A stretch of 64,000 nt of DNA from an uncultured Geobacteraceae bacterium (GCA_903901875.1 CAIUSO010000142.1:9836-73835); one strand, 5' to 3'. Counted from the stretch's first letter, positions 5,661-58,350 are shown. Translations and numbers: made by a program. The notes: a model not told the origin generated them from the sequence alone.

Positions 5661-5936
5661 ATGAAAATTTCCCGTAGTGACCTGCTCACGGCTCCGTTGA
5701 CAGCCGATGAGATGAAATGGGGGAGCAATCTTGCCGACAACTTGCCGGATGAGGTTGACCTGACATTTGAAGAATTGAAAATACTGACCAGGCTCTCTAT
5801 TCATGAGTGGCCCGATGCCTTGATTCTGAAAGTCAAGGACGCCATCGATGTGGAAGATTTTTTGCAGGAAAACGAGGAATCCATAATAAATCACCCCATG
5901 GGTGACGGAGAAGCTCCTAAGGAGATGTTTCATTGA
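5661..5936 (+). CDS. Hypothetical small acidic protein (91 aa)
   Basis: ATG preceded by GGGGAGGGAG. The stop overlaps the TTG start of the next gene (TTGA at 5933-5936). I recognise no family. Confidence 0.5.
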   Translation: MKISRSDLLTAPLTADEMKWGSNLADNLPDEVDLTFEELKILTRLSIHEWPDALILKVKDAIDVEDFLQENEESIINHPMGDGEAPKEMFH

Positions 5937-21372: not shown

Positions 21373-22330
21373 TCCGTCACTCATAGTACTCGCACTCTGC
21401 CTCGATCTGATTCTGGGAGATCCGGCCTGGCTTCCCCATCCGGTGGTGGGTATTGGACGACTGATCACTCAGCTTGATTCCGGCCTGCGGCAAACGTGGC
21501 TCAACGAGCGACTGGCCGGTGTGCTGATGCTGCTTCTGGTTACTTCCGCTGCCGGTGGCACCGTGTGGGCCATACTTCACTTCGTTTCAGACTGGTCGTC
21601 TGTCGCAGGCTGGCTGGTTGCCAGTATGATTTCCGCCACCTGCCTTGCCACCCGTTCCCTGCATCGGGAGTCTGGCCGGGTGGCCGATGCACTGGTGGCA
21701 GGCAATCTTCCGGAGGCGCGGAAATACCTCTCCTACATCGTCGGTCGTGATACGGGACATCTGGGGGAGGATGAAATCTGGCGGGGAGTAATCGAAACGG
21801 TGGCCGAAAACAGTTGTGACGGCATCATGGCACCCCTGTTCTGGTTGACAATCGGGGGACCGGTGGGGGCCATGGTCTACAAAGGGGTCAGTACCCTTGA
21901 TTCCATGGTAGGGTACCGCAATCCCCGCTATCTTCAGATCGGGTGGGCCTCGGCCCGCATGGATGACCTGCTTAATTTTATCCCGGCCCGTCTTACGGCA
22001 CTGCTGTTGATTCTTGCGGCACCATTTGCCGGCTGTTCCCCTGCTGCAGGCCTCAAGATCGTTCTCAGGGATCGGCATAATCACCCCTCCCCCAACAGCG
22101 GCCACCCGGAAGCGGCAGCGGCCGGAGCGTTGGGGGTACGTCTCGGTGGTGAAGCCTGTTACGGAGGGGTTCCGTCATGGAAGGAATACATCGGCGATCC
22201 CCTTTACCCCCACGATGAGCGGGCCTATCGCACCCTGATCAAGCTCATGTATATTTCGACACTGCTGATGGCGGCCATTTGCCTCACCGTTGCAGTTTGT
22301 CTGAGAGGATTCCATGTCCCGTATCTATGA
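21347..22330 (+). CDS. cbiB: Adenosylcobinamide-phosphate synthase (CobD/CbiB family)
   Basis: Membrane protein with LILGDPAWLPHPVVGIGRLI, IVGRDT and HPSPNSGHPEAA motifs. It overlaps the previous gene by 26 nt. Confidence 0.9.
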   Translation: MDWIVTVADPSLIVLALCLDLILGDPAWLPHPVVGIGRLITQLDSGLRQTWLNERLAGVLMLLLVTSAAGGTVWAILHFVSDWSSVAGWLVASMISATCLATRSLHRESGRVADALVAGNLPEARKYLSYIVGRDTGHLGEDEIWRGVIETVAENSCDGIMAPLFWLTIGGPVGAMVYKGVSTLDSMVGYRNPRYLQIGWASARMDDLLNFIPARLTALLLILAAPFAGCSPAAGLKIVLRDRHNHPSPNSGHPEAAAAGALGVRLGGEACYGGVPSWKEYIGDPLYPHDERAYRTLIKLMYISTLLMAAICLTVAVCLRGFHVPYL

Positions 22331-23396
22331 TCATGGTGGTAATGTTTTTGCCGTAGCCCGATCCCTCGGCGTTGCGCCGGAGCAGATCACCGATTTCTCT
22401 GCCAGTATCAACCCTCTCGGCCTCTCGTCTTCCGTGCGGGAGGCCATCATCGGCTCCCTGAACCGATTGGTCCATTACCCCGATTCGAGCCACGATCGGT
22501 TGAAACATGCGTTGGCGACATATCATCGATTATCCCCTGACCATTTCACCATTGGCAATGGTTCTACGGAGCTGATTTACCATATCCCCCTGCTGCTTAC
22601 CGCCGGAACCGCCCTGTTGATTTCCCCCTCGTTCAGTGAATATGCCAGTTCCCTTGCGCTCCATGGCTGGCAGGTGGGGCGGCTCATACTGGAACCCCAG
22701 CGAAACTTTACGATTGATCTGGAAGAGCTGGAACGGCGTCTGGCTACCGGTGTGGAGCTGCTGATTCTCTGCAATCCTGGCAGTCCGTCCGGCCGGTTGC
22801 ATCCACCAGAGGTCATCGGCCAGATTGCCGAACTATGCCGAGTTGCTGGTACCTTTCTGCTGCTTGATGAAGCGTTCATGGATTTCAGTGAACCTGCCTC
22901 GGCCAAACATCTGCTGGTGGGGTATGACCGGGCGATCATTCTCCGTTCCATGACAAAATTTTTCGGTATTCCCGGTCTGCGTCTCGGGTATGCCATCTCC
23001 AATGCAGCTCTTGCCGGGCGTCTCGATCTGCCCGGCGGTCCTTGGCGGGTCAATACCCTGGCTCTGGAGGCCGGTGTGGCGGCTCTTGAAGATCTGCAGC
23101 ATAATCGGGAAACCCTGGCATATGTTGAACGAGAACGGGAGCAGTTGTTCAGGGGGCTGTCCCGGTTTTCCTGGCTCAGACCGTACCGCTCCACGACAAA
23201 TTACCTTCTGGTGGAAATAGTCGGAGGTATGCCGGCCCGACTGCTCAAGGAACGACTGCTTTCCCACTTGATTTTGATACGGGACTGCTCCAATTTTGAG
23301 GGGCTTTCGGACTATTTCTTTCGGGTAGCGGTACGGACGGGTGAGGAAAATCGGCGGTTACTGGAATGTCTGGAGGCGGTTTGGTTAATGGCCTAA
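22314..23396 (+). CDS. cobD: Threonine-phosphate decarboxylase (CobD, class I/II aminotransferase fold)
   Basis: YDHGGNVF near the N-terminus, DFSASINPLG, and the SMTKFFGIPGLRLGY PLP-lysine motif. It overlaps cbiB by 17 nt. Confidence 0.8.
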   Translation: MSRIYDHGGNVFAVARSLGVAPEQITDFSASINPLGLSSSVREAIIGSLNRLVHYPDSSHDRLKHALATYHRLSPDHFTIGNGSTELIYHIPLLLTAGTALLISPSFSEYASSLALHGWQVGRLILEPQRNFTIDLEELERRLATGVELLILCNPGSPSGRLHPPEVIGQIAELCRVAGTFLLLDEAFMDFSEPASAKHLLVGYDRAIILRSMTKFFGIPGLRLGYAISNAALAGRLDLPGGPWRVNTLALEAGVAALEDLQHNRETLAYVEREREQLFRGLSRFSWLRPYRSTTNYLLVEIVGGMPARLLKERLLSHLILIRDCSNFEGLSDYFFRVAVRTGEENRRLLECLEAVWLMA

Positions 23397-23530: not shown

Positions 23531-26251
23531 CTACCCGGCAATTATGCCTTTCACACCAATAATTTGGGCCTGTTTAACCATGCGTATGACTTCCTCTGGT
23601 GAAATCGGCTTAGCAAGAGCATAGCCTTGAAACTCATGGCATCCTTCACTCTTAAGGAAATTAAACTGGTCAACATCCTCAGCTCCTTCTGCGATTACTC
23701 TCAGATTGAGGTTGCGAGCCATTGCAATAATCGTTCTGGTAATAGCAGCATCATCTTTGTTAACCATGATATCTTTTACAAATGAACGATCAATTTTGAG
23801 ACGATCAATAGGCAACCGTTTTAGATATTCCAGCGAGGAGTAACCGGTGCCAAAATCATCCAGAGCAATGCCTATCCCCACGTTTTTAAACTGCTGGAGC
23901 ACTGAGATGGTTTCTTCAACATGTGACATTAATACGGATTCAGTCAGCTCCAGTTCTAGTAGACCTGGGGGGATGTTGCTCTCACTGATAATGTTTTCAA
24001 CAGTCTCTACAAAATTGCTTTGCGCAAACTGTTTTGCGGAGACATTAACGGCAACACGTAATGATAAACCATCTTCATGGTACCATTTGGCTGCCTGACA
24101 ACAGGCGGTTTTAAGTACCCAGTATCCCAATTTGTTGATCAGCCCTACCTCTTCCGCAATAGAGATAAATTCATTCGGACCTACAACCCCCTTTTGTGGA
24201 TGACGCCATCTGACCAGAGCTTCAACACCGATGATTCTATCGCTGCTGAACTCTGCTTGCGGTTGATATAAGAGGAACAGCTCGTCAGGGATGGCAATAC
24301 GCAAGTCTGCCTCAAAGGTAAAGCGTTCCTGCGTCTGCTGGGCAATATGGGCATCAAAATACTGACAGTTGTTTTTTCCGGCGGCCTTAGCGCGATACAT
24401 GGCCACATCGGCATTCTGAAACAGAACAGCGGCCTCATTGCCATCATCAGGATAGATACATACACCGACGCTCGCTCCAACATGTACTCGAGATCCCTCT
24501 ATCATGATAGGTGCTGACACAGCATCAATTATCGCCCGAGCTATTCGTTTAACCGTGATAGTGTCAGAAATTTCTTCGAGGAGGATAATAAACTCGTCTC
24601 CACCCAAACGCGCAACGGTATCAGTACTGCGTAGGCAACTGACCAGCCGCTTGGAGACTATTTGAAGAAGTTCATCGCCCGCATGATGCCCAAGTGTGTC
24701 ATTTACTTTTTTAAAATCATCAAGATCAACGAGCAGGACTGCCAATTGTCTGCCATTGCGTTCTGCATTCAGTATTGCATGAGAAAAGCGATCATTAAAC
24801 AGCTGGCGATTAGGGAGTCCGGTTAAAAAGTCATAATGCGCAAGATGGTAGATCCGCTCCGAAGACTCTTTCTGCTCGGTAATATCCTCGTTTGTCCCTA
24901 TATAATAGAGGACTTCGCCGGAATTATTGCAAACGGAGGATATATGTAGAAGGCACGCAAATCCATCGCCGTTCTTTTTCCGATTCCATATTTCACCCAA
25001 CCATTCACCATTATTTATTAAGTTTTCCCAAAGCGTTTTATAAAATTCTGTTTCCTGTTTGTTTGATCTAAGAATACGCGGCGTTTTGCCGATTGCCTCC
25101 TCAGGAGAGTAGCCAGTCGCATCGGTAAAATATTTGTTGACCCGAAGAATGATGCCTTGAGGATCTGTTACCAACATGGATTGCCTGCTCTGTTCAAAAA
25201 CCTGCGCCGCAAGATCCAGCTCAGCTTGCTGGTCAATCAGTGCCTGATTTGAAGCCGCTAAAACAGACATATTGTGTATTCCATTTTTCCAGTCGCAATA
25301 TATCCAACGTGCAGCATAGAGCGTACTGAAGCAGAATATTGTTACGAGCAAGATGTTTTTGATCTGGTCACGGCACCAGGCTGATAGATATTCTTTCTTT
25401 GAGAGTCCAACTATAAGGTGAAAAGGAAACTTAGATAGTTTATTGTAATAGTATGTTCGCTCGACGTGGTCTGTAAGGGGAATGGCAGTGTAATAAACGT
25501 CGTCCCGTCCAGATGCCAAAATACGCTTCAAGCTGTCCGATAAATCCTTTTTCCCTACGGCACTCGCTCCTCCAGGCAGAACAGGATAGTGTGTAACAAT
25601 ACCAAGATCTTCGCCCCGTAAGGAAATTACACCATTTTTACCCAGTTTAATGGTTGAAAAAAGTTCATAAAAGGAGTCCAGATAAATTCCGGCTGCAACT
25701 ATTCCACCAAATGAACCATCAGGTAAACTAAAGCGACGGGACAGAAATATGGTCCACTTTCCTGTTGTACGTCCAATGAGGGGTTTTGAAATGACCAGCT
25801 GTGCGTTCGGATCATCATGCTGACGAATGAAATAGTCGCGATCACCAATGTTTATAGGTGGGCCGGCCCCCTCGTCAAACAACATGTTACCCCGACAGTC
25901 AGCTAGTCTTATAATGTCAACAAAAGGAATTTGTTCATGGATTTGTTTCAGATGAACAATGGTTGAATGCTCATCAATTCCAGTGGCCGTTTGTCTTTCG
26001 TAAATTTCATCTACCGCCCAACGAAGCGCAATATCAATTTTTTCGAATTTATTTATAAGAATCTGCTCAATGGCATTTGAAACATTTTTTGTGGAAATCT
26101 GAGCCTGCTCCTCATAGTTGGTCTTGGATTCGTACGCAGAGTGACACACTATCAGGATAACAAACAGGTCGACCAATAGTACTGCCCCGGCTAAGCGTGA
26201 GAGAAATGTCTTGGTAGACATTAAATAAGTTGTATTTCGTAATTTCATCAA
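23531..26251 (-). CDS. Membrane sensor with a periplasmic Cache-like domain, PAS, GGDEF and EAL domains
   Basis: N-terminal TM segment, about 270 aa of periplasmic region, a second TM segment, then PAS (TDATGYSPEEAIGK). Then RLGGDEFIIL (GGDEF) and EALVRW...ELTES...DDFGTGYSSL...KIDRSF (EAL). Confidence 0.9.
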   Translation of the reverse strand: MMKLRNTTYLMSTKTFLSRLAGAVLLVDLFVILIVCHSAYESKTNYEEQAQISTKNVSNAIEQILINKFEKIDIALRWAVDEIYERQTATGIDEHSTIVHLKQIHEQIPFVDIIRLADCRGNMLFDEGAGPPINIGDRDYFIRQHDDPNAQLVISKPLIGRTTGKWTIFLSRRFSLPDGSFGGIVAAGIYLDSFYELFSTIKLGKNGVISLRGEDLGIVTHYPVLPGGASAVGKKDLSDSLKRILASGRDDVYYTAIPLTDHVERTYYYNKLSKFPFHLIVGLSKKEYLSAWCRDQIKNILLVTIFCFSTLYAARWIYCDWKNGIHNMSVLAASNQALIDQQAELDLAAQVFEQSRQSMLVTDPQGIILRVNKYFTDATGYSPEEAIGKTPRILRSNKQETEFYKTLWENLINNGEWLGEIWNRKKNGDGFACLLHISSVCNNSGEVLYYIGTNEDITEQKESSERIYHLAHYDFLTGLPNRQLFNDRFSHAILNAERNGRQLAVLLVDLDDFKKVNDTLGHHAGDELLQIVSKRLVSCLRSTDTVARLGGDEFIILLEEISDTITVKRIARAIIDAVSAPIMIEGSRVHVGASVGVCIYPDDGNEAAVLFQNADVAMYRAKAAGKNNCQYFDAHIAQQTQERFTFEADLRIAIPDELFLLYQPQAEFSSDRIIGVEALVRWRHPQKGVVGPNEFISIAEEVGLINKLGYWVLKTACCQAAKWYHEDGLSLRVAVNVSAKQFAQSNFVETVENIISESNIPPGLLELELTESVLMSHVEETISVLQQFKNVGIGIALDDFGTGYSSLEYLKRLPIDRLKIDRSFVKDIMVNKDDAAITRTIIAMARNLNLRVIAEGAEDVDQFNFLKSEGCHEFQGYALAKPISPEEVIRMVKQAQIIGVKGIIAG

Positions 26252-26326: not shown

Positions 26327-29041
26327 TCAGACTGCAACGGATATGTAGGCAGAATACTCGCGATCATACTCCAACATATGTTTTTTTATAACTTCGTAAA
26401 CAAGAAACTCAAAAACGTCTCCAACATGAATTTCATTTGAGTTGAAATCTTCGGCCAGATCAAGAGCTCTTTTTTTGAGTTTTTCATGTTCGATGGCATG
26501 TTGCTTCACGAAAGGATACCCTATTGATTCGAGAATATGTTCCTCATCAATAAAGTGTTTCGTAATATCATCAAGCAGTTGAGAAATAATATTTGAAATT
26601 TCTTCCTTCGTGCTGGATTTAATAATTACATGTAATAGCTTGTTTGAATTAAGAAACAGAGTCTTATGCTGGTCATCAATCAACTCATTCCCCAGAGTAA
26701 ATGACTCCTGCCAGACAAGTTGCACGAAATTATCGTCTAACTGCTCAGGGTAAACATCATTGTACTCTATACGGTTACGCCCAAGAGCTTTGGCTTTATA
26801 AAGCAGTTCGTCTGCACGGGCTACAATTTCTGAAGCTGATTCTTCATTATGGCATACTATTGTAACAACCCCCAAACTGGCTGTTACACAATTCGCTGTA
26901 TCAGACCATTCATGGGGTATAGCAAGATTAATGATGCCTTGACGAATCCTTTCAGCGATAAGCAGGGCCCCGTGCTGGTCAGTATCAGGAAGGATACACG
27001 CGAACTCTTCACCGCCATACCGGGCGGCCAGATCACCGGGCCGAACAGCACTCTTATCAATCACTCCAGCAAGCTGTTGCAGACACTTATCGCCACTCAC
27101 ATGGCCATAGTTGTCGTTGAAAAGCTTGAAACAATCAATATCAAGCATTATGAGTGATAATTCTGATTCGGTACGAGCAAGTCGAGAATATTCTCTGAGC
27201 AGAACATCATCAAACTGACGACGATTAGCTATGCCGGTCAAACCATCAGTTGTGCTCAGCGAAACAAGTCTGCTGTTTGCCTCTCCTAACTCCGTATTCA
27301 AGTGTTCAAGCTCTTGCTGCACCTGTTTTATCTCGGTAACATCGGTTACCAATACATAAAATCCGACAATTTGGCCGTTATACAGGTCTGGGATATAGCT
27401 GGACTGGGAGTGGCGAATACCACCGCCATCGGGAACTGGTATGGCGCGCTCGAAGTGCTGAATCTCACCACGCAATGCCCCCTCAATATATGCCAGGTTA
27501 AGCTGATAGCGCTCTTCGCCAATCACTTCCCGGATATGCATACCAGGCATGGAGTCCGGATCAATGCCAAACCATTCACGGTATGCGTGGTTGCCGAAGC
27601 GGCACCGAAGGTCGTGGTTCCAGTAACCGATCATGGCTGGCATATTGTTGAGTATTAACTTCATATCCCGCTCGCGCTGCTCAAGCTTTTGATACGTCTG
27701 TTTGAGATTGGAAATATCAATGTGGGTGATAACAGCACCTCCGTTTTCCGATCGAAGTGGTTCAACCTTCATCAAGAACCAGCGCTTTACAGCTGGAGAA
27801 TGACACGGGTATTCCAGCGAAAATGAATCCGCCTTACCGGCAAGCACCGAACTGATACCATCCAGTGCTTCCAGCGCTTGATCAGAATAATCACCGTAAC
27901 TCCCACGGCATACATCGAGGTAACTGGTTCCCTCTCTGTAATGACGGGGAAGATTGCCATCTGCCGTGCGATTGGTCTCGGCAAAGTTGGTCCATGCATC
28001 ATTGACGGATACAATAACTCCGCTCTTATCAAGTATTGCTACGGGCGAATTAATTGAATCAAGTAATGCCCGGTTATATTCGGCAGTTCTGGCTAACTCG
28101 GTGCTACGTTGCAGCATTCTTCTGGTGATGAATATGCCTGATGAAGAGAGGAGCAGGTACAGCGACAGCTGTATAGCATAGTTGATTTTCCAGCGTACAA
28201 GCACTTCATTCAGATTACGACTGGCACCAACGATAAAATGTTTATCGACGCGAAGGTCCTTTGAAGAGTTGGTAATATAGGCAAAAACACGGTAATCGCC
28301 GGTCGTAGCACTCTGGCCACTCTGGATGGAAGCCGATTTGCCCTCTTGTACGTGCCGATACATGAGAGAACCTGGCTTCATAAGATTTTTACCGACAACG
28401 GAATTATTATCGTCCGGTATTGCAGTAAAAATAGTGCCTTCGGAATGGATCAGCGCAATCCGGTTGTCCGGGGCAAAAATGGTTGATTTAAGCAGAGTCT
28501 GAAAATAGTCCTGAGAGAGAGAAACAGTAATGACCCCTTTGAATTCACCCTGTGTTCCTTCGATTGGCCTTGTAATATTCATTATATAAGGGCCAAGAAC
28601 GGATTTGAACGGTGGCGACAGAAAGAGCATATTTTTGTCTGGAGCGTTTCGCGTTGCGACGAAGTAGTCACGATTACTGAAGTCTAATCCCACAAGCTCT
28701 TCCCGGTTAGAGTGGATGACGCTCCCCCACTCATCGATAACGAGAAGTGAACGTACACCAGGCATTCGGTTGCATTGGGTTTTCAGAAAGCTGTCAAACT
28801 TGTTGGAGGGAATATCGTTTAACTCGTGCGTAATATATTCGAGGGCCAATCTGGAGGTTAACAGATTTGAAGTGAGGTTTTCATCAACAACTCGTGCCTG
28901 AGCCATCAGACGTTCTTCGAGCTGGTGAACTTCCCAACGGTAATCAGCAATGGAGCGTACCACCAGTAGCAGTGCTATGGTTGCCATAACTGAGAGCACT
29001 AAAGCCCATATAGTTCGATGCGAGGAATTTGTAACTTTCAT
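26327..29041 (-). CDS. Membrane sensor with a Cache-like domain, two PAS domains, GGDEF and a C-terminal hemerythrin-like domain
   Basis: RYGGEEFACIL (GGEEF active site) with a candidate RxxD I-site motif. The C-terminal 130 aa read LVWQESFTLGNELIDDQHKTLF...HFIDEEHIL...HAIEHEKL...HMLEYDREY, matching the hemerythrin His/Glu/Asp ligand pattern. Confidence 0.85.
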   Translation of the reverse strand: MKVTNSSHRTIWALVLSVMATIALLLVVRSIADYRWEVHQLEERLMAQARVVDENLTSNLLTSRLALEYITHELNDIPSNKFDSFLKTQCNRMPGVRSLLVIDEWGSVIHSNREELVGLDFSNRDYFVATRNAPDKNMLFLSPPFKSVLGPYIMNITRPIEGTQGEFKGVITVSLSQDYFQTLLKSTIFAPDNRIALIHSEGTIFTAIPDDNNSVVGKNLMKPGSLMYRHVQEGKSASIQSGQSATTGDYRVFAYITNSSKDLRVDKHFIVGASRNLNEVLVRWKINYAIQLSLYLLLSSSGIFITRRMLQRSTELARTAEYNRALLDSINSPVAILDKSGVIVSVNDAWTNFAETNRTADGNLPRHYREGTSYLDVCRGSYGDYSDQALEALDGISSVLAGKADSFSLEYPCHSPAVKRWFLMKVEPLRSENGGAVITHIDISNLKQTYQKLEQRERDMKLILNNMPAMIGYWNHDLRCRFGNHAYREWFGIDPDSMPGMHIREVIGEERYQLNLAYIEGALRGEIQHFERAIPVPDGGGIRHSQSSYIPDLYNGQIVGFYVLVTDVTEIKQVQQELEHLNTELGEANSRLVSLSTTDGLTGIANRRQFDDVLLREYSRLARTESELSLIMLDIDCFKLFNDNYGHVSGDKCLQQLAGVIDKSAVRPGDLAARYGGEEFACILPDTDQHGALLIAERIRQGIINLAIPHEWSDTANCVTASLGVVTIVCHNEESASEIVARADELLYKAKALGRNRIEYNDVYPEQLDDNFVQLVWQESFTLGNELIDDQHKTLFLNSNKLLHVIIKSSTKEEISNIISQLLDDITKHFIDEEHILESIGYPFVKQHAIEHEKLKKRALDLAEDFNSNEIHVGDVFEFLVYEVIKKHMLEYDREYSAYISVAV

Positions 29042-32370: not shown

Positions 32371-32506
32371 CTCTCTTTGTAAATGGCAAACTCAGGGTAA
32401 CCTGGGGACGCAAAGCCACGAGTCCGGTAAACGGATAGTCGGGCTGTCTGGAAAGAGGGTTATCTCTGACCCTTCTTAAGATGTATTTAGAAGGGTTTTT
32501 TATTTT
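32371..32506 (+). ncRNA. GEMM-I (c-di-GMP-I class) riboswitch: aptamer plus terminator expression platform
   Basis: 32385-32417 reads GGC AAAC TCAGG GTAA CCTGG GGACGCAAA GCC. This has the same layout as the Vc2 core GGCAAACCAUUCGAAAGAGUGGGACGCAAAGCC (5-bp helix, GNRA loop). A second hairpin lies at 32418-32446. Candidate P1 is CTCTCTTT (32371-78) pairing with AAAGAGGG (32452-59). The terminator follows. Confidence 0.8.
32469..32506 (+). terminator. Intrinsic terminator of the riboswitch expression platform
   Basis: ACCCTTCT ... AGAAGGGT has an 8-bp stem and is followed by TTTTTTATTTT. It ends 20 nt before the ATG at 32527. Confidence 0.7.
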
Positions 32507-53321: not shown

Positions 53322-55139
53322 GTGAAACTCCTTTTTGAACTAACTGCTACCGACCGGCATTTTGCCGCATTTATACAAAATAAGGCGATAGAACCCCCAC
53401 CATGGTTGGAACTGCTGGCGGAACTTGCGAGTAATTCTGTTGGTAGCGGCAATATCTGTCTTAATCTGGCGGACATCGCAGATACAGATGTTATGGTGGA
53501 TGGTTTTGAACGCCGGGTGCCTCCACTCAAGGTTATTCAGCAGGAAATAGTTACAACTACGATAGTTGGTATTCCGGGAGAGTTTAAGCCACTCGTTCTC
53601 GATGGGGCTGGCAGACTGTACCTCTACCGGTACTGGAAATACGAGTGCGATCTGGCACGGATTATTGCGGAGAAGGGTGCGGCGCAGGATATCCCTCTGG
53701 ATGAGCTCCTGTTACGTGACGGTATCCAGCGATTTTTCCCTTGTGGAGCAGGAGAGGGGACCGACTGGCAAAAAATCGCCGCCTTGGCTGCCGTACAAAA
53801 AAGGTTTTGCGTTATATCGGGAGGGCCGGGAACGGGCAAAACTTCGACCGTCGTGAAAATTCTTGCCATGCTCCTGGAACAGGCTCACGGAGGTACCCTG
53901 CGCATTGCCCTTGCGGCACCGACCGGAAAGGCTGCCGCGCGGTTGAAAGAGTCCATTCGAGGTATGAAGGATCGGCTTGATTGTACCGTTGCCATTAAAG
54001 ATCAGATCCCGGAAGAAGTAACAACGATTCATCGTCTTCTGGGTGTTCAACCTGGCTCGGCGCGCTTTCGGCATTCGGAGGGTAACCGGTTGCCACATGA
54101 CGTGGTAATCGTAGACGAAGCTTCAATGGTTGCGCTTCCGCTGATGGCAAAACTTGTAACCGCTCTCCGAACAGACGCACGCCTCATACTTCTCGGGGAT
54201 AGGGACCAGCTTGCGTCCGTTGAAGCGGGTGCTGTCCTTGGCGATATCTGCGGAGGTGGTCGTCAGGAAGCGTATTCTGTCCGTTTTGTGGATTTTATAC
54301 ATACCATCAGTGGTGAAACTATTGTGGATCAACCGATGGTCCGTGACCAAGGTGTCCTCGTGGACTCATTGGTGGTACTCAAAAAAAATTACCGCTTTGG
54401 AGCCGATAGTAGTATCGGTGCTGTTTCACAAGCGGTAAATAGTGGCAATGGCAGGGGGGCACTTTCAGTGCTGAAAGATGAAAGCCGAGCTGGCAGCCGT
54501 TGGCACGATGTGCCTCACCACGAGAAGCTTAAAAAGGCCATGGAACATATAGTTACCACGCAGTACCGCAGTTATCTTGCGGCTGAAACACCATCTGAAG
54601 CACTGAAGCTTTTCGACAATTTCAGAATTCTCTGTGCCCTGCGCAAGGGGCCCTATGGGGTAATGGGAATAAACACCATGGTAGAGGAAATCCTTACTGA
54701 GAAAGGGCTGATTGAGCAAAATAACCGCTGGTATTCCGGGCGTCCGGTGATGATTACCGTGAATGACTACCATCTGAAGCTTTTCAATGGTGACATTGGA
54801 ATAGTACTTCCCGATTCTGAAAATGAGGGGAACCCGCGCGTATGGTTTCCTGCTTCCGATGGTGGCCTCCGAAATGTGGCTCCCGTGAGACTGCCAGCCC
54901 ATGAGACTGTCTACGCAATGACCGTACATAAAAGTCAGGGGTCAGAGTTTGAACGGGTTCTCTTGCTTTTGCCTGAAAATGATTCGGAAGCATTGGCACG
55001 TGAGCTTATATATACCGGCATAACACGGGCTAGGAATGACATCGAAGTGTGGGCACACAAGGACGTTTTTGTTGCTGCGGTTTCGCGGAAAATCGACCGG
55101 AAATCAGGGTTGGAAAACGCGCTCTGGAAAAAAGCATGA
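53322..55139 (+). CDS. recD: Exodeoxyribonuclease V alpha subunit
   Basis: GTG start with GGAGGA 7 nt upstream. ISGGPGTGKTS, VIVDEASMV, LGDRDQLASVEAG and MTVHKSQGSEF. Confidence 0.9.
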   Translation: MKLLFELTATDRHFAAFIQNKAIEPPPWLELLAELASNSVGSGNICLNLADIADTDVMVDGFERRVPPLKVIQQEIVTTTIVGIPGEFKPLVLDGAGRLYLYRYWKYECDLARIIAEKGAAQDIPLDELLLRDGIQRFFPCGAGEGTDWQKIAALAAVQKRFCVISGGPGTGKTSTVVKILAMLLEQAHGGTLRIALAAPTGKAAARLKESIRGMKDRLDCTVAIKDQIPEEVTTIHRLLGVQPGSARFRHSEGNRLPHDVVIVDEASMVALPLMAKLVTALRTDARLILLGDRDQLASVEAGAVLGDICGGGRQEAYSVRFVDFIHTISGETIVDQPMVRDQGVLVDSLVVLKKNYRFGADSSIGAVSQAVNSGNGRGALSVLKDESRAGSRWHDVPHHEKLKKAMEHIVTTQYRSYLAAETPSEALKLFDNFRILCALRKGPYGVMGINTMVEEILTEKGLIEQNNRWYSGRPVMITVNDYHLKLFNGDIGIVLPDSENEGNPRVWFPASDGGLRNVAPVRLPAHETVYAMTVHKSQGSEFERVLLLLPENDSEALARELIYTGITRARNDIEVWAHKDVFVAAVSRKIDRKSGLENALWKKA

Positions 55140-56056
55140 TCGAATGGAATTGGAAAGGTGTTATTGGCTCAGCAGATCTCTTTGGAGGAAACGTGAATAC
55201 GTTTATCTGTATCTTGGTGGCTTTCTTCTTCACGCTCAGCGCAGGTTGCGCTGAAATATACGCACATCCTCTTCCGCAGCAGGCAATGCCGAAAATTACC
55301 TGGTATACCGGCGGCAAAGGAAAACTTGACCTCAAACAGCTTGAGGCTGGTAAGGATCCCTGGATTGATTTAGCCGGGGTTACGTCGGGAAAGACATTGA
55401 TCATTAAGGTGACCAAGAGCGGTGGTGCCCCCCGAAGTAATCCCATACCTCTCGATACGAACGGTTCTTTCAATGTTCGTTACTTGCTGAAAGATGGTCC
55501 GGGAACATATACCGTTACCTTGTTCGGCAGCGATGCCCCCCATGCTCTTAGCTATCAGGGGTTGGGGGCTTTCACAATGATCGTTGCAGAGCCTCTTGCT
55601 CCCCATGATCGGACCCTTGAATTAAACCCTCGTATCATTTCCTTTGTCAACAAAGTGCTTGGAAAAACCGTTGGTCGTGGAGAATGCTGGGATCTGGCAC
55701 AGCAGGCACTCGATGCCAACCTCGCAGACTGGTCCCGTCCCACCAGTTTTGGTATCCCGTTGAATCCTGCCGTTGATACCATCAAAGCTGGCGATATAAT
55801 TCAATTTCGCTCCGTTATACTTACTGAAGAGCTGCCTCATGGAGGCAGACGTGTGAGTACCGTAGGAGCTCCGGATCATACCGCCGTTATATATAACGTA
55901 GTGGGTAAACTACACTACACGCTGGCCCAGCAAAATGTTGGCGGTAACCGCAGCGTCATCACGGAAAAAATGAATCTTGGCACCATAACCGGCGGCCATT
56001 ATCAGATTTATCGCCCAACAGCATTGATGATACAAAAAGCCATTGTGGCCGAATAG
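55136..56056 (+). CDS. Lipoprotein with a C-terminal papain-like (CHAP/NlpC-P60 superfamily) Cys-His domain
   Basis: The ATG overlaps the recD TGA (ATGA at 55136-39). The signal reads FICILVAFFFTLSAGC. The C-terminal domain has GRGECWDLAQQAL (Cys), AGDIIQF and PDHTAVIYNV (His). The track start at 55049 lies inside recD. Confidence 0.65.
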   Translation: MIEWNWKGVIGSADLFGGNVNTFICILVAFFFTLSAGCAEIYAHPLPQQAMPKITWYTGGKGKLDLKQLEAGKDPWIDLAGVTSGKTLIIKVTKSGGAPRSNPIPLDTNGSFNVRYLLKDGPGTYTVTLFGSDAPHALSYQGLGAFTMIVAEPLAPHDRTLELNPRIISFVNKVLGKTVGRGECWDLAQQALDANLADWSRPTSFGIPLNPAVDTIKAGDIIQFRSVILTEELPHGGRRVSTVGAPDHTAVIYNVVGKLHYTLAQQNVGGNRSVITEKMNLGTITGGHYQIYRPTALMIQKAIVAE

Positions 56057-56062
56057 ATGGTG

Positions 56063-56755
56063 TTAACAGACTCCTGTCTCACAGATCGATTCTCTCGCAA
56101 CTTTGACTGCATGTTCCGCATTATCGGCCCACAGATCAGCACCAACGGTACGCCACAGCTCCGGTGATGCGTTGAATGGCACTCCACCTACCATTAACAG
56201 GGGGGTGTCCTTGGGAAAGGCACTTCTTATGGAGGTGATGAGTTCGGTAACTTTTGGTACATGGTAGGACATGGTTGCTGAAAGGGCTACCAGATTGGGT
56301 CTTTTCTCCTTGATGGCATAGATGAGCTGATCATCGGAAACACCGGACCCTAGATACCAGGTATCCCAGCCATCCATTTCAAAGAAATCGGTTACCATGC
56401 GTACACCCATTTCGTGTAGTTCGGGGCCGACACAAGCTGCAATCAGTTTTGCCCCCGAACCATTGGATGATATGATCTCCGGGTAGAGCTCCAGCATGAG
56501 AGACTGAGTGGCCGCCGTACAAAAATGCTCTTCAGCAACGCTGATCTTGTTAATAAGCCAGAGACGCCCCACTTCGTACTGCACCTGCTGGAAGATGTCG
56601 ATATATAGATCCCGAATGGACAGGCCGTCCTTCAGAGCATCCCGGATTTTCTGATACGCTTTTTGTCGCTCACCTGTCAGAAGAAACTCCAGATAGTCGC
56701 TCGCAAGTTTTGGAAGCTGGATCGCCCCATGGGCACATATTTCCTGATTGGTCAT
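56063..56755 (-). CDS. Standalone cobalamin-binding protein (B12-binding_2 helical bundle plus B12-binding Rossmann domain) of the CarH/AerR type, with no DNA-binding domain
   Basis: The ATG at 56755 is preceded by AAGGAGAG. The Wx9EH motif is present in GRLWLINKISVAEEHF, and the ExHxxG lower-ligand motif in GPELHEMG. Then comes LVALSATMSYH...LLMVGG. Confidence 0.8.
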   Translation of the reverse strand: MTNQEICAHGAIQLPKLASDYLEFLLTGERQKAYQKIRDALKDGLSIRDLYIDIFQQVQYEVGRLWLINKISVAEEHFCTAATQSLMLELYPEIISSNGSGAKLIAACVGPELHEMGVRMVTDFFEMDGWDTWYLGSGVSDDQLIYAIKEKRPNLVALSATMSYHVPKVTELITSIRSAFPKDTPLLMVGGVPFNASPELWRTVGADLWADNAEHAVKVARESICETGVC

Positions 56756-56831
56756 TTCACTCTCCTTCTCCATTAGAAGCGAAGATATTGTGCCGTCTGG
56801 GGGGGGCTCTACCTCAAGATGAATGTGTGAA

Positions 56832-58100
56832 TCAAGATCTGTCGAATAATAGTGAACTGTCCAGTAGTGCAAGTACCCTGTTCAGCTCATCTTTTGTCAA
56901 AACGGATGTTTCTTCCAGCCAACTCATCAACAACGCTCTACACTCAGGCATACCAGCGATACGATCGATCTGGCTTCCAACCAGTATGTGCGGCAGGTCA
57001 GGGAATTCAATACCGGTTGCAGAAGGTATGGCATGAGACAGCACTGCGCAGAGTTTGTCGAAATTATCTTGAGTGATGATACTGCATCGTTGATTGTACA
57101 TCTCCGTAGCAACTGCCTGGAGTGCCTCGACTGACACGGTGCCTTTTAACTGTTGCAGGTTTTCGACAAGCAGCTGTACCTGACGTTCCAGTAACAACAG
57201 CGGCATACCGCGGCTTGAGAGTACCCTGCCGAGCCACAACACTTGATTCGAAACAATCTCTACGGATTGTCCCGACAGTGCCGCAAGCCATGCAACATCG
57301 CTGTTCGTAAATTTCTGTCCCCGTTCGCCATAGTGCTTTCCATAATAGGAAAATTCATCACGACACTGTTGCCCAGCTTTTATGGCAGCATTCAGCTCAT
57401 CTCTGCTTTGTGGAACGGGATGGTCGCCCGCTTCCGGGTTCAGGGAAGATGCGGTAATTCCAATGTGTTCGGATGAAAAGGGGTAGAGTGCTTCATGAAA
57501 TAGCTCTAAAGCTTTATAGATGTCAACGGTACCCTGTTCTGCAGCACCTCTCGCTGAACTATCAGCATCATTCATTACGGCACGGAACTCTTCCCAATGT
57601 GATTCGGTAGCATCACCGTAGCCACGGTAAAAGGAAACTCCCTGCTCATCTTCAAGGTTGAAGCAACGAACTATGTCGGGCAGATGTACTTGATTACCCC
57701 GAGTGGTTCCCTCCAGAACATACAAATAGCCGAGAAGCCTGTCAGGATCAGTGGTGGCCTCTGTGCGTATCTGTCGTGCAAAATCCAGTGCCAATCTGAT
57801 TGCAGGGACAACATCCGGTACCGATGTGGCTGCAAAAAACTCAAGATCAGCACAGAGCATTTTAAATCTTGATTTTAAAATCGGTTTCAGGCGTTCAATT
57901 ACGGGAGATTGAGATTCTGCCACGGCATGTTCCACGGTTGAAAGTATTGCTGCCAATCCACGCAACTGGCCAATATAACTTTCAAGTGGAAGTGTACCAT
58001 TGGTCATGGCGACAACAAACGGAAGTTTCTCGAAGGTCTCATGACGATGCCAGGTAACCGATCGGAGGTGGTCCACAAGTGGTAGCGTCGTAGTACTCAT
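56832..58100 (-). CDS. Two-domain protein: N-terminal heme-oxygenase-like domain plus a C-terminal helical domain of unknown function
   Basis: LRSVTWHRHETFEKL...ESYIGQLRGL...LGYLYVLEGTTRGN matches the heme oxygenase family pattern. I cannot assign residues 215-422 to any family. Confidence 0.65.
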   Translation of the reverse strand: MSTTTLPLVDHLRSVTWHRHETFEKLPFVVAMTNGTLPLESYIGQLRGLAAILSTVEHAVAESQSPVIERLKPILKSRFKMLCADLEFFAATSVPDVVPAIRLALDFARQIRTEATTDPDRLLGYLYVLEGTTRGNQVHLPDIVRCFNLEDEQGVSFYRGYGDATESHWEEFRAVMNDADSSARGAAEQGTVDIYKALELFHEALYPFSSEHIGITASSLNPEAGDHPVPQSRDELNAAIKAGQQCRDEFSYYGKHYGERGQKFTNSDVAWLAALSGQSVEIVSNQVLWLGRVLSSRGMPLLLLERQVQLLVENLQQLKGTVSVEALQAVATEMYNQRCSIITQDNFDKLCAVLSHAIPSATGIEFPDLPHILVGSQIDRIAGMPECRALLMSWLEETSVLTKDELNRVLALLDSSLLFDRS

Positions 58101-58200
58101 TAAAATCTCCTCTTGAATTGAAAAATATTACTCTTATAAATCAGGCATATTGCAGAAATTACGGCAATATTTTACACTGTATTGGCACCTCTGTCCATTA

Positions 58201-58320: not shown

Positions 58321-58350
58321 AGAGGTCAAGGGAGAGTACCCTTGACCTCT
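58321..58350 (+). terminator. Perfect 12-bp stem hairpin with a T tract in the leader of the Rrf2 gene (attenuator or operator)
   Basis: AGAGGTCAAGGG agagta CCCTTGACCTCT is followed by TTTTATTT. It ends 17 nt before the Rrf2 ATG at 58368. Confidence 0.5.

What the first reader, a model, noticed from the sequence alone, without database searches (positions are those of the whole stretch)
56063..58100. Standalone Wx9EH cobalamin sensor module paired with a heme-oxygenase-like two-domain protein
The 230-aa protein carries both hallmarks of AdoCbl photoreceptors of the CarH family. Wx9EH appears as WLINKISVAEEH in the helical bundle. ExHxxG appears as ELHEMG in the Rossmann domain. It has no MerR or other DNA-binding domain, like the short cobalamin-binding antirepressors AerR and PpaA.

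Its upstream operon partner, 76 nt away on the same strand, fuses a heme-oxygenase-fold domain to an unassigned 200-aa helical domain. The partner is not a PpsR/CrtJ-type repressor.

A tetrapyrrole-cleaving or tetrapyrrole-binding domain next to a corrinoid light or redox sensor suggests an undescribed two-chromophore sensing or tetrapyrrole-homeostasis module. This sits in an apparently anaerobic genome that also encodes cob genes and a B12-type radical SAM in the same window. An Rrf2 regulator is divergently transcribed.
Basis: partly seen in the sequence, partly recalled or inferred. Interest (0 to 1): 0.7.

Follow-up and report, generated by a model that had tools for sequence, protein, structure and literature searches.

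The report
Split B12–biliverdin photoreceptor gene pair
Two co-transcribed genes encode a vitamin-B12-binding sensor protein and a heme oxygenase fused to a bilin-binding globin, which together look like a two-piece version of the recently described 'photocobilin' light sensors with its own pigment-making enzyme; the module is real and widely conserved, but its kind is already catalogued.

Summary
On the minus strand, 56832-58100 encodes a 422-aa protein with a canonical heme-oxygenase (HO) domain plus about 200 unassigned helical residues. After a 76-nt gap, 56063-56755 encodes a 230-aa standalone CarH-type cobalamin-binding domain (CBD) carrying GxxWx9EH and ExHxxG.

The "unassigned" domain is largely assignable. 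Residues ~217-341 are homologous to photoglobins, the bilin-binding globins (profile-profile probability 93-95%, E 6e-8 to 3e-7). The two key biliverdin contacts of the photocobilin SasPcob, Asp270 and Trp296, map to family-invariant D268 and W289. The last ~80 residues remain unassigned.

The CBD's best solved relative is SasPcob (E 1e-19), far ahead of CarH (E 1e-3).

The pairing is strongly conserved. It occurs in 54 of 73 loci across many phyla, always on the same strand, and four natural HO-globin-CBD fusions exist. A histidine kinase usually sits in the same gene string, but not in this window.

Best reading: a split photocobilin that makes its own biliverdin. Relevant prior work is Schneider 2022, Rockwell 2023 and Zhang 2024. 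The divergent Rrf2 gene is not a conserved neighbour. No member with this architecture has been tested experimentally.

The parts
58169..58197 (-). Promoter-like site (TGGACA-17-TAAAAT, 10 of 12 matches) about 70 nt upstream of the HO-globin start codon
   Evidence: This is a consensus match only; the total number of such sites in the region is no higher than in shuffles.
56832..58100 (-). Gene for the 422-aa HO-photoglobin fusion protein
   Evidence: ORF. An identical protein is called in public assemblies (P0001). AF2 model has pLDDT 93.5 and pTM 0.88 and is all-helical.
57486..58100 (-). Heme oxygenase domain (residues 1-205). Carries proximal His20, Glu24, Tyr127, Gly131 and Gly135. The distal Asp of canonical HOs is Thr132 here.
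   Evidence: Pfam PF01126, E 3.9e-14. PDB sequence hits to Leptospira and Synechocystis HO. Foldseek TM-score (normalised by target length) about 0.8 to HmuO, Synechocystis HO-1 and mammalian HO-1/2. Invariant residues; numbering.
57408..57452 (-). Conserved extended linker LNPEAGDHPVP (residues 217-231; N221, E223, G225 and H227 invariant). Role unknown.
   Evidence: Alignment A1. Non-helical in both AF2 models.
57078..57404 (-). Photoglobin/BBAG-like five-helix bilin-binding globin (residues ~233-341). Contains the motif RYGERGxxFTxSD268xAW and QVxW289LGRVLxxR297GMP300.
   Evidence: hhalign against 54 globin domains of globin-CBD proteins gives 93-95% probability, E 6.5e-8 to 3e-7, over 117-118 columns. 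Those globin domains hit allophycocyanins (E 9e-7) and SasPcob residues 253-318. Weak Foldseek hits to globins and phycobiliproteins.
56844..57071 (-). Family-specific four-helix C-terminal extension (residues ~344-419; D379, G383 and W394 invariant). Unassigned.
   Evidence: No similarity to photoglobin, to the first half of the region, or to the CBD (hhalign probability <=1.1%). No Pfam or PDB sequence hit. Also present in standalone ~215-aa versions of the module.
56756..56831 (-). 76-nt intergenic spacer with a Shine-Dalgarno sequence (GGAGAAGGAGAG) before the CBD ATG. No terminator-like site.
56063..56755 (-). Gene for the 230-aa standalone CarH/photocobilin-type cobalamin-binding protein
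   Evidence: An identical protein is called in public assemblies (P0121).
56495..56698 (-). B12-binding_2 four-helix bundle (residues 20-87) with G63xxW66x9E76H77, the cap over the adenosyl ligand
   Evidence: Pfam E 5e-12. Aligned to SasPcob Trp61 and Glu71-His72. Motif positions.
56108..56449 (-). B12-binding Rossmann domain (residues 103-216) with E112xH114xxG117. His114 is the predicted lower axial Co ligand.
   Evidence: Pfam E 4e-19. Aligned to SasPcob His108.
56038..56050 (-). Terminator-like hairpin plus T-run 13 nt after the CBD stop codon
   Evidence: Weak: 5-bp stem.

Best explanation
The two genes form one operon that encodes a split, self-provisioning photocobilin-type photoreceptor.

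Inferred chemistry: the N-terminal heme oxygenase domain cleaves heme with O2 to give biliverdin IXalpha. The globin domain fused to it holds the biliverdin non-covalently, with Asp268 binding the pyrrole nitrogens and Trp289 packing on ring D, as Asp270 and Trp296 do in SasPcob.

The separate 230-aa protein binds adenosylcobalamin base-off/His-on through His114. Trp66 and Glu76-His77 cap the adenosyl group.

The two proteins dock so that the bilin lies next to the corrin, as in the single-chain photocobilins. Green light absorbed by AdoCbl, or red/far-red light absorbed by biliverdin, then breaks the Co-C bond. This changes the oligomeric state or the complex and alters the activity of a partner.

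In most relatives that partner is a soluble histidine kinase encoded in the same gene string. In this genome the kinase is not in the operon and the partner is unknown.

Shown here: the domain identities, the conserved ligand-binding residues, the conserved gene pairing and the natural fusions. Inferred: cofactor binding, HO turnover, complex formation, the light response and the output.
For: 1. CBD identity. B12-binding_2 plus B12-binding. GxxWx9EH and ExHxxG are present in the window protein. They occur in 55 of 57 and 57 of 57 neighbouring CBDs respectively. The best solved relatives are the photocobilins 8J2W/8J2X (E 1e-19) and 8J2Y (E 3e-13), against CarH at E ~1e-3. The CBD is 46-60% identical to the CBD of ~320-365-aa globin-CBD proteins, some of which carry precomputed PF00502 phycobilisome hits.

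2. HO identity. Pfam E 4e-14. Canonical HO fold with TM-score (normalised by target length) ~0.8. The proximal His20-Glu24 pair, Tyr127 and Gly131/Gly135 are conserved.

3. Globin identity. hhalign gives 93-95% probability, E 6.5e-8 to 3e-7, over ~118 columns to photoglobin domains. The second half of the region serves as an internal negative control at about 1% probability. The template domains are phycobiliprotein-like. The photoglobin Asp and Trp align to SasPcob chain D264 and W290, which are Asp270 and Trp296 in the paper's numbering (PMC10979010). Through hhalign these correspond to the invariant D268 and W289. The 'RGMP' motif resembles the 'RGMC' motif reported for the biliverdin-binding BBAG-2 proteins (PMC10151467).

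4. Functional linkage. A same-strand CBD gene is adjacent, one gene away, or fused in 54 of 73 loci from many phyla. Natural HO-globin-CBD fusions are L038, L048, L066 and P0095. Partner distance matrices correlate (Mantel r = 0.70; 0 of 2000 permutations reach it).

5. Signalling context. A gene of the histidine-kinase/receiver cluster lies in the same co-directional string in 51 of 66 loci. Pfam confirmed a sample of these. The contexts of P0002 and P0012 agree.

6. Published biochemistry of relatives. Photocobilins bind AdoCbl plus biliverdin and respond to green and red light (PMC10979010). BBAG-2 globins bind biliverdin (PMC10151467).

7. Cofactor supply. Cobalamin biosynthesis genes lie in the same window.
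Against: - No biochemical data exist for any HO-globin fusion.
- The globin assignment rests on profile-profile comparison. The C-terminal profile found nothing in PDB sequences or Pfam. Foldseek on the isolated domain gave only non-significant globin and phycobiliprotein hits (best E 1.4; best TM-score normalised by target length 0.56). The built-in comparison with the small alignments gave only 43% probability (E 2.5e-4).
- Both cysteines used by related globins are absent: CxxD is TxxD here, and RGMC is RGMP. Binding would therefore have to be non-covalent, as in SasPcob.
- The distal Asp of canonical HOs is Thr/Ser in the whole family, so turnover is unproven.
- Two of the four SignatureFinder 'light-responsive' elements deviate: GxxxH instead of GxxH, and GxxxS instead of GxxxP (PMC11796333).
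- HO needs O2, and most hosts carry the names of anaerobic lineages (Desulfuromonadales, Desulfobacterales, Syntrophobacteraceae).
- No output partner is encoded next to the pair in this window. Kinases elsewhere in the window match only in the generic catalytic core.
Confidence: 0.65

Rival explanations
1. The parts are the same but the input is not light. The module would report O2, redox state, or heme/B12 status in the dark. Biliverdin can only be made when O2 reaches the HO domain, so bilin loading of the globin (or the Cbl oxidation or ligand state, as for OH-Cbl in AerR) would switch the complex and the partner kinase.
For: Hosts are mostly labelled as anaerobic or sediment lineages. 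HO chemistry requires O2 (established HO enzymology; discussed in PMC10151467). In this family HO is fused to the sensor, not merely nearby. Two light-signature elements deviate in the window CBD.
Against: The adenosyl-capping Wx9EH motif, which is specific to light-sensing CBDs, is conserved in 55 of 57 partners. The closest solved relatives are demonstrated photoreceptors. Many source samples are lake water columns and bogs, where some light is available (record names).
Confidence: 0.2
2. A tetrapyrrole homeostasis or iron-acquisition module. The HO would degrade heme for iron or detoxification, the C-terminal domain would chaperone heme or biliverdin, and the CBD would be a corrinoid carrier or B12-status sensor. 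No signalling role.
For: HO enzymes are used for iron acquisition in many bacteria (established knowledge). Cob genes lie in the window. No kinase sits next to the pair in this genome.
Against: No heme uptake, TonB or iron-regulated genes are conserved around the pair. The conserved third gene is a histidine kinase. The CBD carries the photoreceptor motif, not an enzyme or transport signature.
Confidence: 0.07
3. The 230-aa protein is a methyl-corrinoid carrier (MtbC/MtaC/MtgC type) of a methyltransferase system, and its adjacency to the HO gene is incidental.
For: The best NCBIfam matches by name are MtbC and MtgC corrinoid proteins (E 1e-14). JGI annotates many homologs as 'methanogenic corrinoid protein MtbC1'.
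Against: Those matches score 51-54 bits against cut-offs of 350-370. No methyltransferase genes are adjacent. Wx9EH is present. Pairing with HO-globin is conserved and fusions exist.
Confidence: 0.03
4. An AerR/PpaA-type cobalamin antirepressor that acts on a PpsR/CrtJ-like or other transcription factor.
For: A standalone CBD without a DNA-binding domain, as in short AerR (PMC9144470). An Rrf2 regulator is divergently encoded.
Against: No PpsR/CrtJ gene is in the window. Rrf2 adjacency is not conserved in any other locus. The Rrf2 heads a cysK-DUF2292-metK string, which suggests cysteine/SAM regulation. Similarity to photocobilin CBDs is far higher than to anything else solved.
Confidence: 0.03

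Closest known systems
Photocobilins SasPcob and AbDPcob (Zhang et al. 2024, Nat Commun, PMC10979010; PDB 8J2W/8J2X/8J2Y)
   Same: CarH-type CBD with Wx9EH and (E/D)xH. A five-helix phycobiliprotein-like globin whose Asp and Trp bind biliverdin non-covalently next to the corrin. These are the best solved relatives of the window CBD (E 1e-19). Asp270 and Trp296 are conserved as D268 and W289.
   Different: Here the CBD and the globin are separate polypeptides. The globin is fused to the biliverdin-producing enzyme and carries an extra ~80-aa four-helix extension and a conserved LNPEAGxHPVP linker. The output in relatives is a separate histidine kinase, not a fused diguanylate cyclase. Nothing has been tested experimentally.
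Photoglobin family and its B12-binding 'regulatory bundle' (Schneider et al. 2022, CSBJ, PMC8717448)
   Same: A bilin-type globin coupled to B12-binding_2 plus B12-binding, either by fusion or by adjacency, embedded in two-component systems. The paper explicitly lists 'biliverdin-producing heme oxygenase' proteins (e.g. WP_045221611.1) and a Heme_oxygenase architecture among photoglobin proteins.
   Different: The conserved photoglobin Cys (C-x-x-D) is Thr265 in the window protein. I could not retrieve WP_045221611.1 to confirm that it belongs to the same subfamily. The paper is purely computational.
BBAG-2 globins with B12-binding proteins and HO (Rockwell, Martin and Lagarias 2023, PNAS, PMC10151467)
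   Same: [quoted passage not shown] They are specific for biliverdin when expressed in E. coli. Their RGMC motif resembles the invariant RGMP here.
   Different: BBAG-2 sits in a three-gene cluster with a pre-PcyA bilin reductase, and it is not described there as fused to HO. Its Cys is Pro300 here. The link is inferred from the published motif, because no BBAG-2 sequence was available to align.
CarH/LitR AdoCbl photoreceptor repressors (PDB 5C8A etc.)
   Same: Same CBD fold and the same Wx9EH / ExHxxG cofactor motifs.
   Different: No MerR DNA-binding domain here. Sequence similarity is much weaker (E ~1e-3). There is a bilin partner.
bphO-bphP operons of bacteriophytochromes (my own knowledge, not tested here)
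   Same: The logic is the same: a heme oxygenase gene is co-transcribed with a biliverdin-using photoreceptor that signals through a histidine kinase.
   Different: The photosensory module is unrelated (PAS-GAF-PHY with covalent biliverdin, against globin plus CBD). No cobalamin is involved, and the HO is a separate protein.
AerR/PpaA cobalamin-binding antirepressors (PMC9144470)
   Same: Standalone cobalamin-binding sensor that acts through protein-protein contacts.
   Different: Their partner is CrtJ/PpsR in photosynthetic bacteria. There is no globin or HO partner and no such repressor here.

Membership tests
CarH-type light-sensing cobalamin-binding domain | B12-binding_2 four-helix bundle followed by a B12-binding Rossmann domain | tested here: met
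   Pfam PF02607 at residues 20-87 (E 5e-12) and PF02310 at 103-216 (E 4e-19), both above gathering score.
CarH-type light-sensing cobalamin-binding domain | Wx9EH adenosyl-capping motif and (E/D)xHxxG lower-ligand motif | tested here: met
   W66-x9-E76-H77 and E112-L-H114-E-M-G117. Aligned to SasPcob Trp61, Glu71-His72 and His108.
CarH-type light-sensing cobalamin-binding domain | SignatureFinder four-element signature GxxW, EH, GxxH, GxxxP (PMC11796333) | tested here: inconclusive
   GxxW and EH are met. The window protein has G-P-E-L-H (Gx3H) and L-G-S-G-V-S, with Ser140 in place of Pro. In the partner family Pro occurs in 37 of 49 and Ser in 10 of 49. Gly at position -4 is the rule, also in the globin-CBD fusions.
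CarH-type light-sensing cobalamin-binding domain | AdoCbl binding and Co-C photolysis | not testable with these tools
   Needs UV-vis spectroscopy of the reconstituted protein.
Canonical heme oxygenase (PF01126) | HO helical fold with proximal His and the Gly-rich distal helix | tested here: met
   Pfam E 3.9e-14. Foldseek TM-score (normalised by target length) 0.75-0.83 to HmuO, Synechocystis HO-1 and mammalian HO-1/2. H20, E24, Y127, G131 and G135 align to the canonical positions.
Canonical heme oxygenase (PF01126) | Distal Asp (human D140 / HmuO D136) that organises the catalytic water network | tested here: not met
   The position is Thr132 in the window protein and Thr/Ser throughout the family. 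Whether this abolishes turnover is unknown; from my own knowledge, some bacterial HOs lack this Asp.
Canonical heme oxygenase (PF01126) | Conversion of heme to biliverdin | not testable with these tools
   Needs an enzyme assay.
Photoglobin / bilin-binding globin (BBAG, phycobiliprotein-like) | Sequence homology to the photoglobin domain | tested here: met
   hhalign of 119 C-terminal domains against 54 globin domains of globin-CBD proteins: 93.2% probability, E 3e-7, 117 columns. First half only: 94.6%, E 6.5e-8. Weaker with small alignments: 43%, E 2.5e-4. The templates hit allophycocyanin (E 9e-7) and SasPcob (E 0.15).
Photoglobin / bilin-binding globin (BBAG, phycobiliprotein-like) | Bilin-binding Asp and ring-D Trp (SasPcob Asp270, Trp296) | tested here: met
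   They map to D268 and W289, both invariant in 35 homologs.
Photoglobin / bilin-binding globin (BBAG, phycobiliprotein-like) | Conserved Cys of the C-x-x-D motif (photoglobin/phycobiliprotein) or of RGMC (BBAG-2) | tested here: not met
   T265-N-S-D268 and R297-G-M-P300. SasPcob also binds biliverdin without a Cys linkage (PMC10979010).
Photoglobin / bilin-binding globin (BBAG, phycobiliprotein-like) | Globin fold | tested here: inconclusive
   AF2 of the isolated region is confident (pLDDT 89.9). Foldseek against PDB gave no significant hit (best E 1.4). About 20 of the top 50 weak hits are globins or phycobiliproteins, for example smURFP with a TM-score normalised by target length of 0.56.
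Photoglobin / bilin-binding globin (BBAG, phycobiliprotein-like) | Fusion or adjacency to B12-binding_2 plus B12-binding genes, within two-component contexts | tested here: met
   54 of 73 loci have a same-strand CBD, and fusions exist. 51 of 66 loci have a kinase/receiver gene in the same string. In this window the CBD is adjacent but no kinase is.
Photocobilin (single-chain CBD-globin photoreceptor) | CBD and biliverdin-binding globin in one polypeptide | tested here: not met
   Two separate genes with a 76-nt gap. Fused relatives do exist: P0095, L038, L048 and L066.
Photocobilin (single-chain CBD-globin photoreceptor) | Simultaneous AdoCbl and biliverdin binding with optical coupling | not testable with these tools
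   Needs spectroscopy with green and red light.
Methyltransferase corrinoid proteins (MtbC/MtaC/MtgC) | Score above the NCBIfam equivalog cut-off; adjacent methyltransferases | tested here: not met
   51-54 bits against cut-offs of 350-370. No methyltransferase neighbours.
AerR/PpaA antirepressor system | PpsR/CrtJ partner and a photosynthesis gene context | tested here: not met
   None among the window's annotated ORFs.

The most novel reading that the evidence does not exclude
In these largely anaerobic hosts the HO-globin/CBD pair may act as a coincidence detector for oxygen and light. The sensor's second chromophore, biliverdin, can only be made in cis when O2 reaches the fused heme oxygenase. 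Red-light sensitivity, or even assembly of the globin-CBD complex, would then appear only after oxic exposure. The unassigned ~80-aa four-helix extension and the invariant LNPEAGxHPVP linker would couple HO turnover or bilin hand-over to the partner kinase. This would be an enzyme-gated photoreceptor with no described precedent.
Probability: 0.15. Interest if true: 0.75.

Novelty: new member of a known kind. Interest (0 to 1): 0.45.

Why it matters
Photocobilins were described only in 2024, and only as single-chain proteins from actinobacteria. This locus belongs to a large family in which the bilin-binding half of such a sensor is fused to the enzyme that makes the bilin, and the B12-binding half is a separate, co-evolving protein. 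The family has at least 849 clusters at 50% identity and spans Desulfuromonadales, Desulfobacterales, Holophagaceae, Verrucomicrobiota, Planctomycetota, Rhodoferax and Competibacter, among others.

If the family behaves as predicted, three things follow. B12/bilin photoreception would extend to many non-phototrophic, mostly anaerobic bacteria. It would offer a genetically self-sufficient two-gene green/red-light module for optogenetics that needs no external biliverdin. It would also raise a testable question: how does an O2-dependent chromophore synthase serve a sensor in anaerobes?

For the scan itself, the main result is that the 'unassigned' domain and the pairing are explained by existing literature.

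Tried and rejected
- C-terminal domain profile (A2) against PDB sequences and Pfam: no meaningful hits.
- Foldseek of the full model: only HO hits in the top 50, so it says nothing about the C-terminal half.
- Foldseek of the isolated C-terminal model: nothing significant. The fold assignment therefore rests on profile-profile comparison and residue mapping.
- The built-in profile comparison with the small alignments was weak (43%). Larger alignments were needed.
- The last ~80 residues were tested as a second globin, an internal repeat, or a CBD-like piece. All were rejected.
- Single-linkage clustering of neighbouring ORFs merged all kinases and receivers into one cluster. I therefore verified a sample by Pfam.
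- A search for a cognate kinase in the window found only generic catalytic-core matches to unrelated hybrid kinases.
- Rfam scan: no cobalamin riboswitch or other RNA element at the locus.
- The Rrf2 neighbour was considered as a partner and rejected, because the adjacency is not conserved.
- I could not retrieve WP_045221611.1 or any BBAG-2 sequence. No supplements are held, and the cluster look-up did not surface them. Those two links therefore rest on the papers' text.
Full report
**Observation**

The minus strand carries two ORFs at the reported coordinates. ORF 56832-58100 encodes 422 aa. The second gene is best read as 56063-56755, encoding 230 aa that start MTNQE. Its ATG follows a GGAGAAGGAGAG Shine-Dalgarno sequence. 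The gap between the genes is 76 nt and holds no terminator-like site. A promoter-like site lies upstream of the first gene (58197-58169), and a weak terminator-like hairpin follows the second (56050-56038).

Pfam places PF01126 Heme_oxygenase on residues 8-183 of the large protein and nothing significant on the remaining ~220 residues. It places B12-binding_2 (20-87) and B12-binding (103-216) on the small protein. The small protein has G63xxW66x9E76H77 and E112xH114xxG117.

Identical proteins and the same gene order are present in public assemblies, including NCBI GCA_903944105.1 contig CAJAQP010000024.1 and ENA lake metagenomes.

**The cobalamin-binding protein**

Against all solved structures, the best relatives are the photocobilins SasPcob (8J2W/8J2X, E 1e-19) and AbPcob (8J2Y, E 3e-13). 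The corrinoid proteins 4JGI, 1Y80 and MtbC-like chains come next, and CarH reaches only E ~1e-3. The alignment puts W66, E76-H77 and H114 on SasPcob Trp61, Glu71-His72 and His108.

NCBIfam matches to methyl-corrinoid proteins score 51-54 bits against cut-offs of 350-370, so that assignment is rejected.

In the large protein database, the closest relatives (up to 85% identity) are standalone proteins of 220-245 aa. At 46-60% identity come ~320-365-aa proteins that have an extra N-terminal domain of ~115-140 aa. Several of these carry precomputed PF00502 (phycobilisome protein) hits.

Two of the four SignatureFinder 'light-responsive' elements are met exactly (GxxW, EH). The other two deviate: Gx3H, and GxxxS instead of GxxxP (PMC11796333). 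Gly at -4 is typical of the whole clade. Ser for Pro is found in a minority that includes the window protein.

**The heme oxygenase domain**

An AlphaFold2 model built from 35 homologs is confident (pLDDT 93.5, pTM 0.88). Its N-terminal half superposes on HmuO, Leptospira HO, Synechocystis HO-1 and mammalian HO-1/2, with TM-scores (normalised by target length) of about 0.8.

His20 (the proximal ligand), Tyr127, Gly131 and Gly135 are invariant, and Glu24 aligns to its canonical position. The distal Asp of canonical HOs is Thr132 here and Thr/Ser in the whole family. Catalysis is therefore plausible but unproven.

**The 'unassigned' C-terminal region**

A profile of this region found nothing in PDB sequences or Pfam. 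A confident AF2 model of the isolated region (pLDDT 89.9) gave no significant Foldseek hit. About 20 of the 50 best weak hits are globins or phycobiliproteins, for example smURFP with a TM-score (normalised by target length) of 0.56.

The link came from the literature and from profile-profile comparison. The PDB hits led to Zhang et al. 2024 (PMC10979010), where photocobilins are a CBD plus a five-helix 'photoglobin' that binds biliverdin next to the corrin. I took the extra N-terminal domains of the globin-CBD relatives found. As a profile, these hit allophycocyanins (E 9e-7 and weaker) and SasPcob residues 253-318 (E 0.15), so they are photoglobins.

hhalign of the window family's C-terminal region against 54 such domains gives 93% probability (E 3e-7, 117 columns). 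Using only residues ~200-341 gives 94.6% (E 6.5e-8). The last ~80 residues give about 1% against the globin, the first half and the CBD, which serves as an internal control. With small alignments, the built-in tool gave a weaker 43% (E 2.5e-4) over the core 77 columns.

The shared motif is plain to see. It reads RYGERGRRFTxSDxAWL...QVxWLGRVL in the HO fusions and RYGxxGRxKCxxDAxRHLxYL...DYVxWxKxL in the photoglobins.

A pairwise alignment of one photoglobin with SasPcob places the conserved Asp and Trp on chain residues D264 and W290. These are Asp270 and Trp296 in the paper's numbering, because chain W55 corresponds to Trp61. Asp270 and Trp296 are the two key biliverdin contacts (PMC10979010). 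Through the hhalign alignment they correspond to D268 and W289 of the window protein, both invariant among 35 homologs.

The photoglobin Cys is Thr265 here. The invariant R297-G-M-P300 resembles the 'RGMC' motif that Rockwell et al. report for the biliverdin-specific BBAG-2 globins. I could not align a BBAG-2 sequence, so this last link is an inference.

The resulting architecture is:
- HO domain, residues 1-205
- conserved LNPEAGxHPVP linker, 217-231
- photoglobin-like domain, ~233-341
- unassigned four-helix extension, ~344-419, with invariant D379, G383 and W394

**Conservation of the pairing**

A scan of one genome per species returned 80 loci. They come from Desulfuromonadales/Geobacter, Desulfobacterales, Syntrophobacteraceae, Holophagaceae, Verrucomicrobiota, Planctomycetia, Rhodoferax, Competibacter, Omnitrophica, Chlamydiota, Spirochaetota and others. 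One cultured strain is among them, Desulfogranum marinum DSM 2058.

Of the 73 loci in which the C-terminal domain was detected, the CBD gene is arranged as follows, always on the same strand:

| Arrangement of the CBD relative to the HO-globin gene | Loci |
|---|---|
| Immediately downstream | 28 |
| Immediately upstream | 7 |
| One gene away | 16 |
| Fused (HO-globin-CBD) | 3 |
| None detected | 19 |

That makes 54 of 73 loci with a CBD. Of the 19 without one, 12 are truncated contigs.

A fourth fusion, P0095 (662 aa), was read directly. Pairwise distances of the globin-extension domain and of the partner CBD correlate across 45 loci (Mantel r = 0.70; 0 of 2000 permutations reach it). This shows stable co-inheritance, although it is not corrected for species phylogeny.

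An exhaustive profile search found 849 clusters at 50% identity (422 at E<=1e-30). Among the 150 listed, most are ~420-aa HO fusions. There are also ~215-aa standalone versions that include the extension, and one tandem duplication.

**Output**

The gene between or after the pair is usually a soluble histidine kinase of ~375-470 aa, made of an unassigned N-terminal region followed by HisKA and HATPase_c, sometimes with a receiver domain. A kinase/receiver-cluster gene lies in the same co-directional gene string in 51 of 66 loci.

The closest homolog (P0002, 74% identity) has the order REC, kinase, hybrid kinase, HO-globin, CBD. P0012 has HO-globin, REC-kinase, CBD, kinase, hybrid kinase. This matches the two-component context that Schneider et al. 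describe for photoglobins.

The window itself has only the two-gene operon. Kinases elsewhere in the window match only in the catalytic core. The divergent Rrf2 gene heads a cysK-DUF2292-metK string and is not found next to any other family member, so it is probably unrelated.

**Mechanism**

The best-supported model is a split photocobilin that supplies its own bilin.
- The HO domain makes biliverdin from heme and O2.
- The fused globin binds it through D268 and W289.
- The CBD binds AdoCbl through His114 under the W66/E76-H77 cap.
- The two proteins dock as the domains do in SasPcob.
- Green or red light then cleaves the Co-C bond and changes assembly, which modulates a partner (a kinase in most relatives).

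Domain identities, ligand residues, synteny and fusions are shown here. Cofactor binding, HO activity, docking, photochemistry and output are inferred from the published behaviour of photocobilins and BBAG-2.

The main rival (about 0.2) keeps the same parts but makes O2/redox or cofactor status the input instead of light. It rests on the anaerobic lineages of most hosts and on the O2 requirement of HO. The heme/iron homeostasis, methyl-corrinoid carrier and AerR-type antirepressor readings are each poorly supported.

**Comparison with the known, and novelty**

The module works like a photocobilin but is not a member in the strict single-chain sense. Its globin belongs to the photoglobin/BBAG lineage by homology and by its bilin-binding residues, but it lacks both cysteines used by relatives.

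The architecture is already in the literature at the bioinformatic level. Schneider et al. 2022 list HO-annotated proteins and a Heme_oxygenase architecture among photoglobins, and note that standalone photoglobins sit next to B12-binding genes. Rockwell et al. [quoted passage not shown] I therefore file it as a new member of a known kind.

Several things remain unaddressed in those papers as far as I could read them: the ~80-aa extension, the invariant linker, the breadth of the family in anaerobes, and what it means to fuse an O2-dependent chromophore synthase to the sensor. Interest is moderate (0.45). A specialist would not be surprised by the parts, but the family is large, untested and readily testable.

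Noticed in passing
window 32376-32452 (+): A c-di-GMP-I (UAU variant) riboswitch aptamer (68.1 bits, above the gathering score) lies about 75 nt upstream of a 1318-aa hybrid sensor kinase (SBP_bac_3, PAS, HisKA, HATPase_c, REC, Hpt). A second 955-aa hybrid kinase follows. A c-di-GMP riboswitch controlling a phosphorelay kinase is an unusual pairing.
   Followed up: partly
window 58321-58350: A perfect 12-bp inverted repeat with a 6-nt loop (AGAGGTCAAGGG-AGAGTA-CCCTTGACCTCT). It lies between the HO-globin promoter region and the conventional start (58371) of the divergent Rrf2 gene. It scores as a bidirectional terminator-like hairpin but could equally be an Rrf2 operator.
   Followed up: no
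window 19039-21372 (+): A 777-aa ORF fuses a tetrapyrrole methylase domain (TP_methylase, residues 4-216) to a CobQ/CobB-type amidotransferase (CbiA plus GATase_3). CobD/CbiB (21347-22330) and a class I/II aminotransferase (22314-23396) follow. This is a cobalamin biosynthesis cluster with an uncommon fusion.
   Followed up: no
window 7048-8574 (+): A 508-aa radical SAM protein whose first ~255 residues have no Pfam match at E<=0.01. The preceding 369-aa ORF (5933-7042) also has no Pfam match.
   Followed up: partly
window 26327-29041 (-): A 904-aa dCache-PAS-GGDEF protein with a C-terminal hemerythrin domain, a candidate O2- or iron-responsive diguanylate cyclase. It sits next to a dCache-PAS-GGDEF-EAL protein (23531-26251).
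   Followed up: no
window 55049-56056 (+): The gene convergent with the operon encodes a ~306-335-aa protein with an AIM3/BBC1 cysteine-proteinase-fold domain (PF25459, E 2.5e-20), a family named after yeast proteins. Its start overlaps the end of recD.
   Followed up: no
loci L012, L053 and P0035/P0166 (same-length contig): The CBDs of L012 and of the second CBD gene in L053 lack Wx9EH. Locus L053 carries two CBD genes. At least one HO-globin appears to share a contig with a globin-CBD fusion (inferred from equal contig lengths, not checked directly), which would mean two globins per system. Subfamily variation was not explored.
   Followed up: no
P0241 (632 aa, from the representative search): One family member has the HO domain followed by two tandem copies of the globin-plus-extension module.
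   Followed up: no
window 56832-58100, residue C246: A Cys in the first globin helix (AGxxC246xxEF) is conserved in most but not all homologs (Ala, Gly or Thr in a few). It could be an alternative covalent bilin attachment site, or irrelevant.
   Followed up: no
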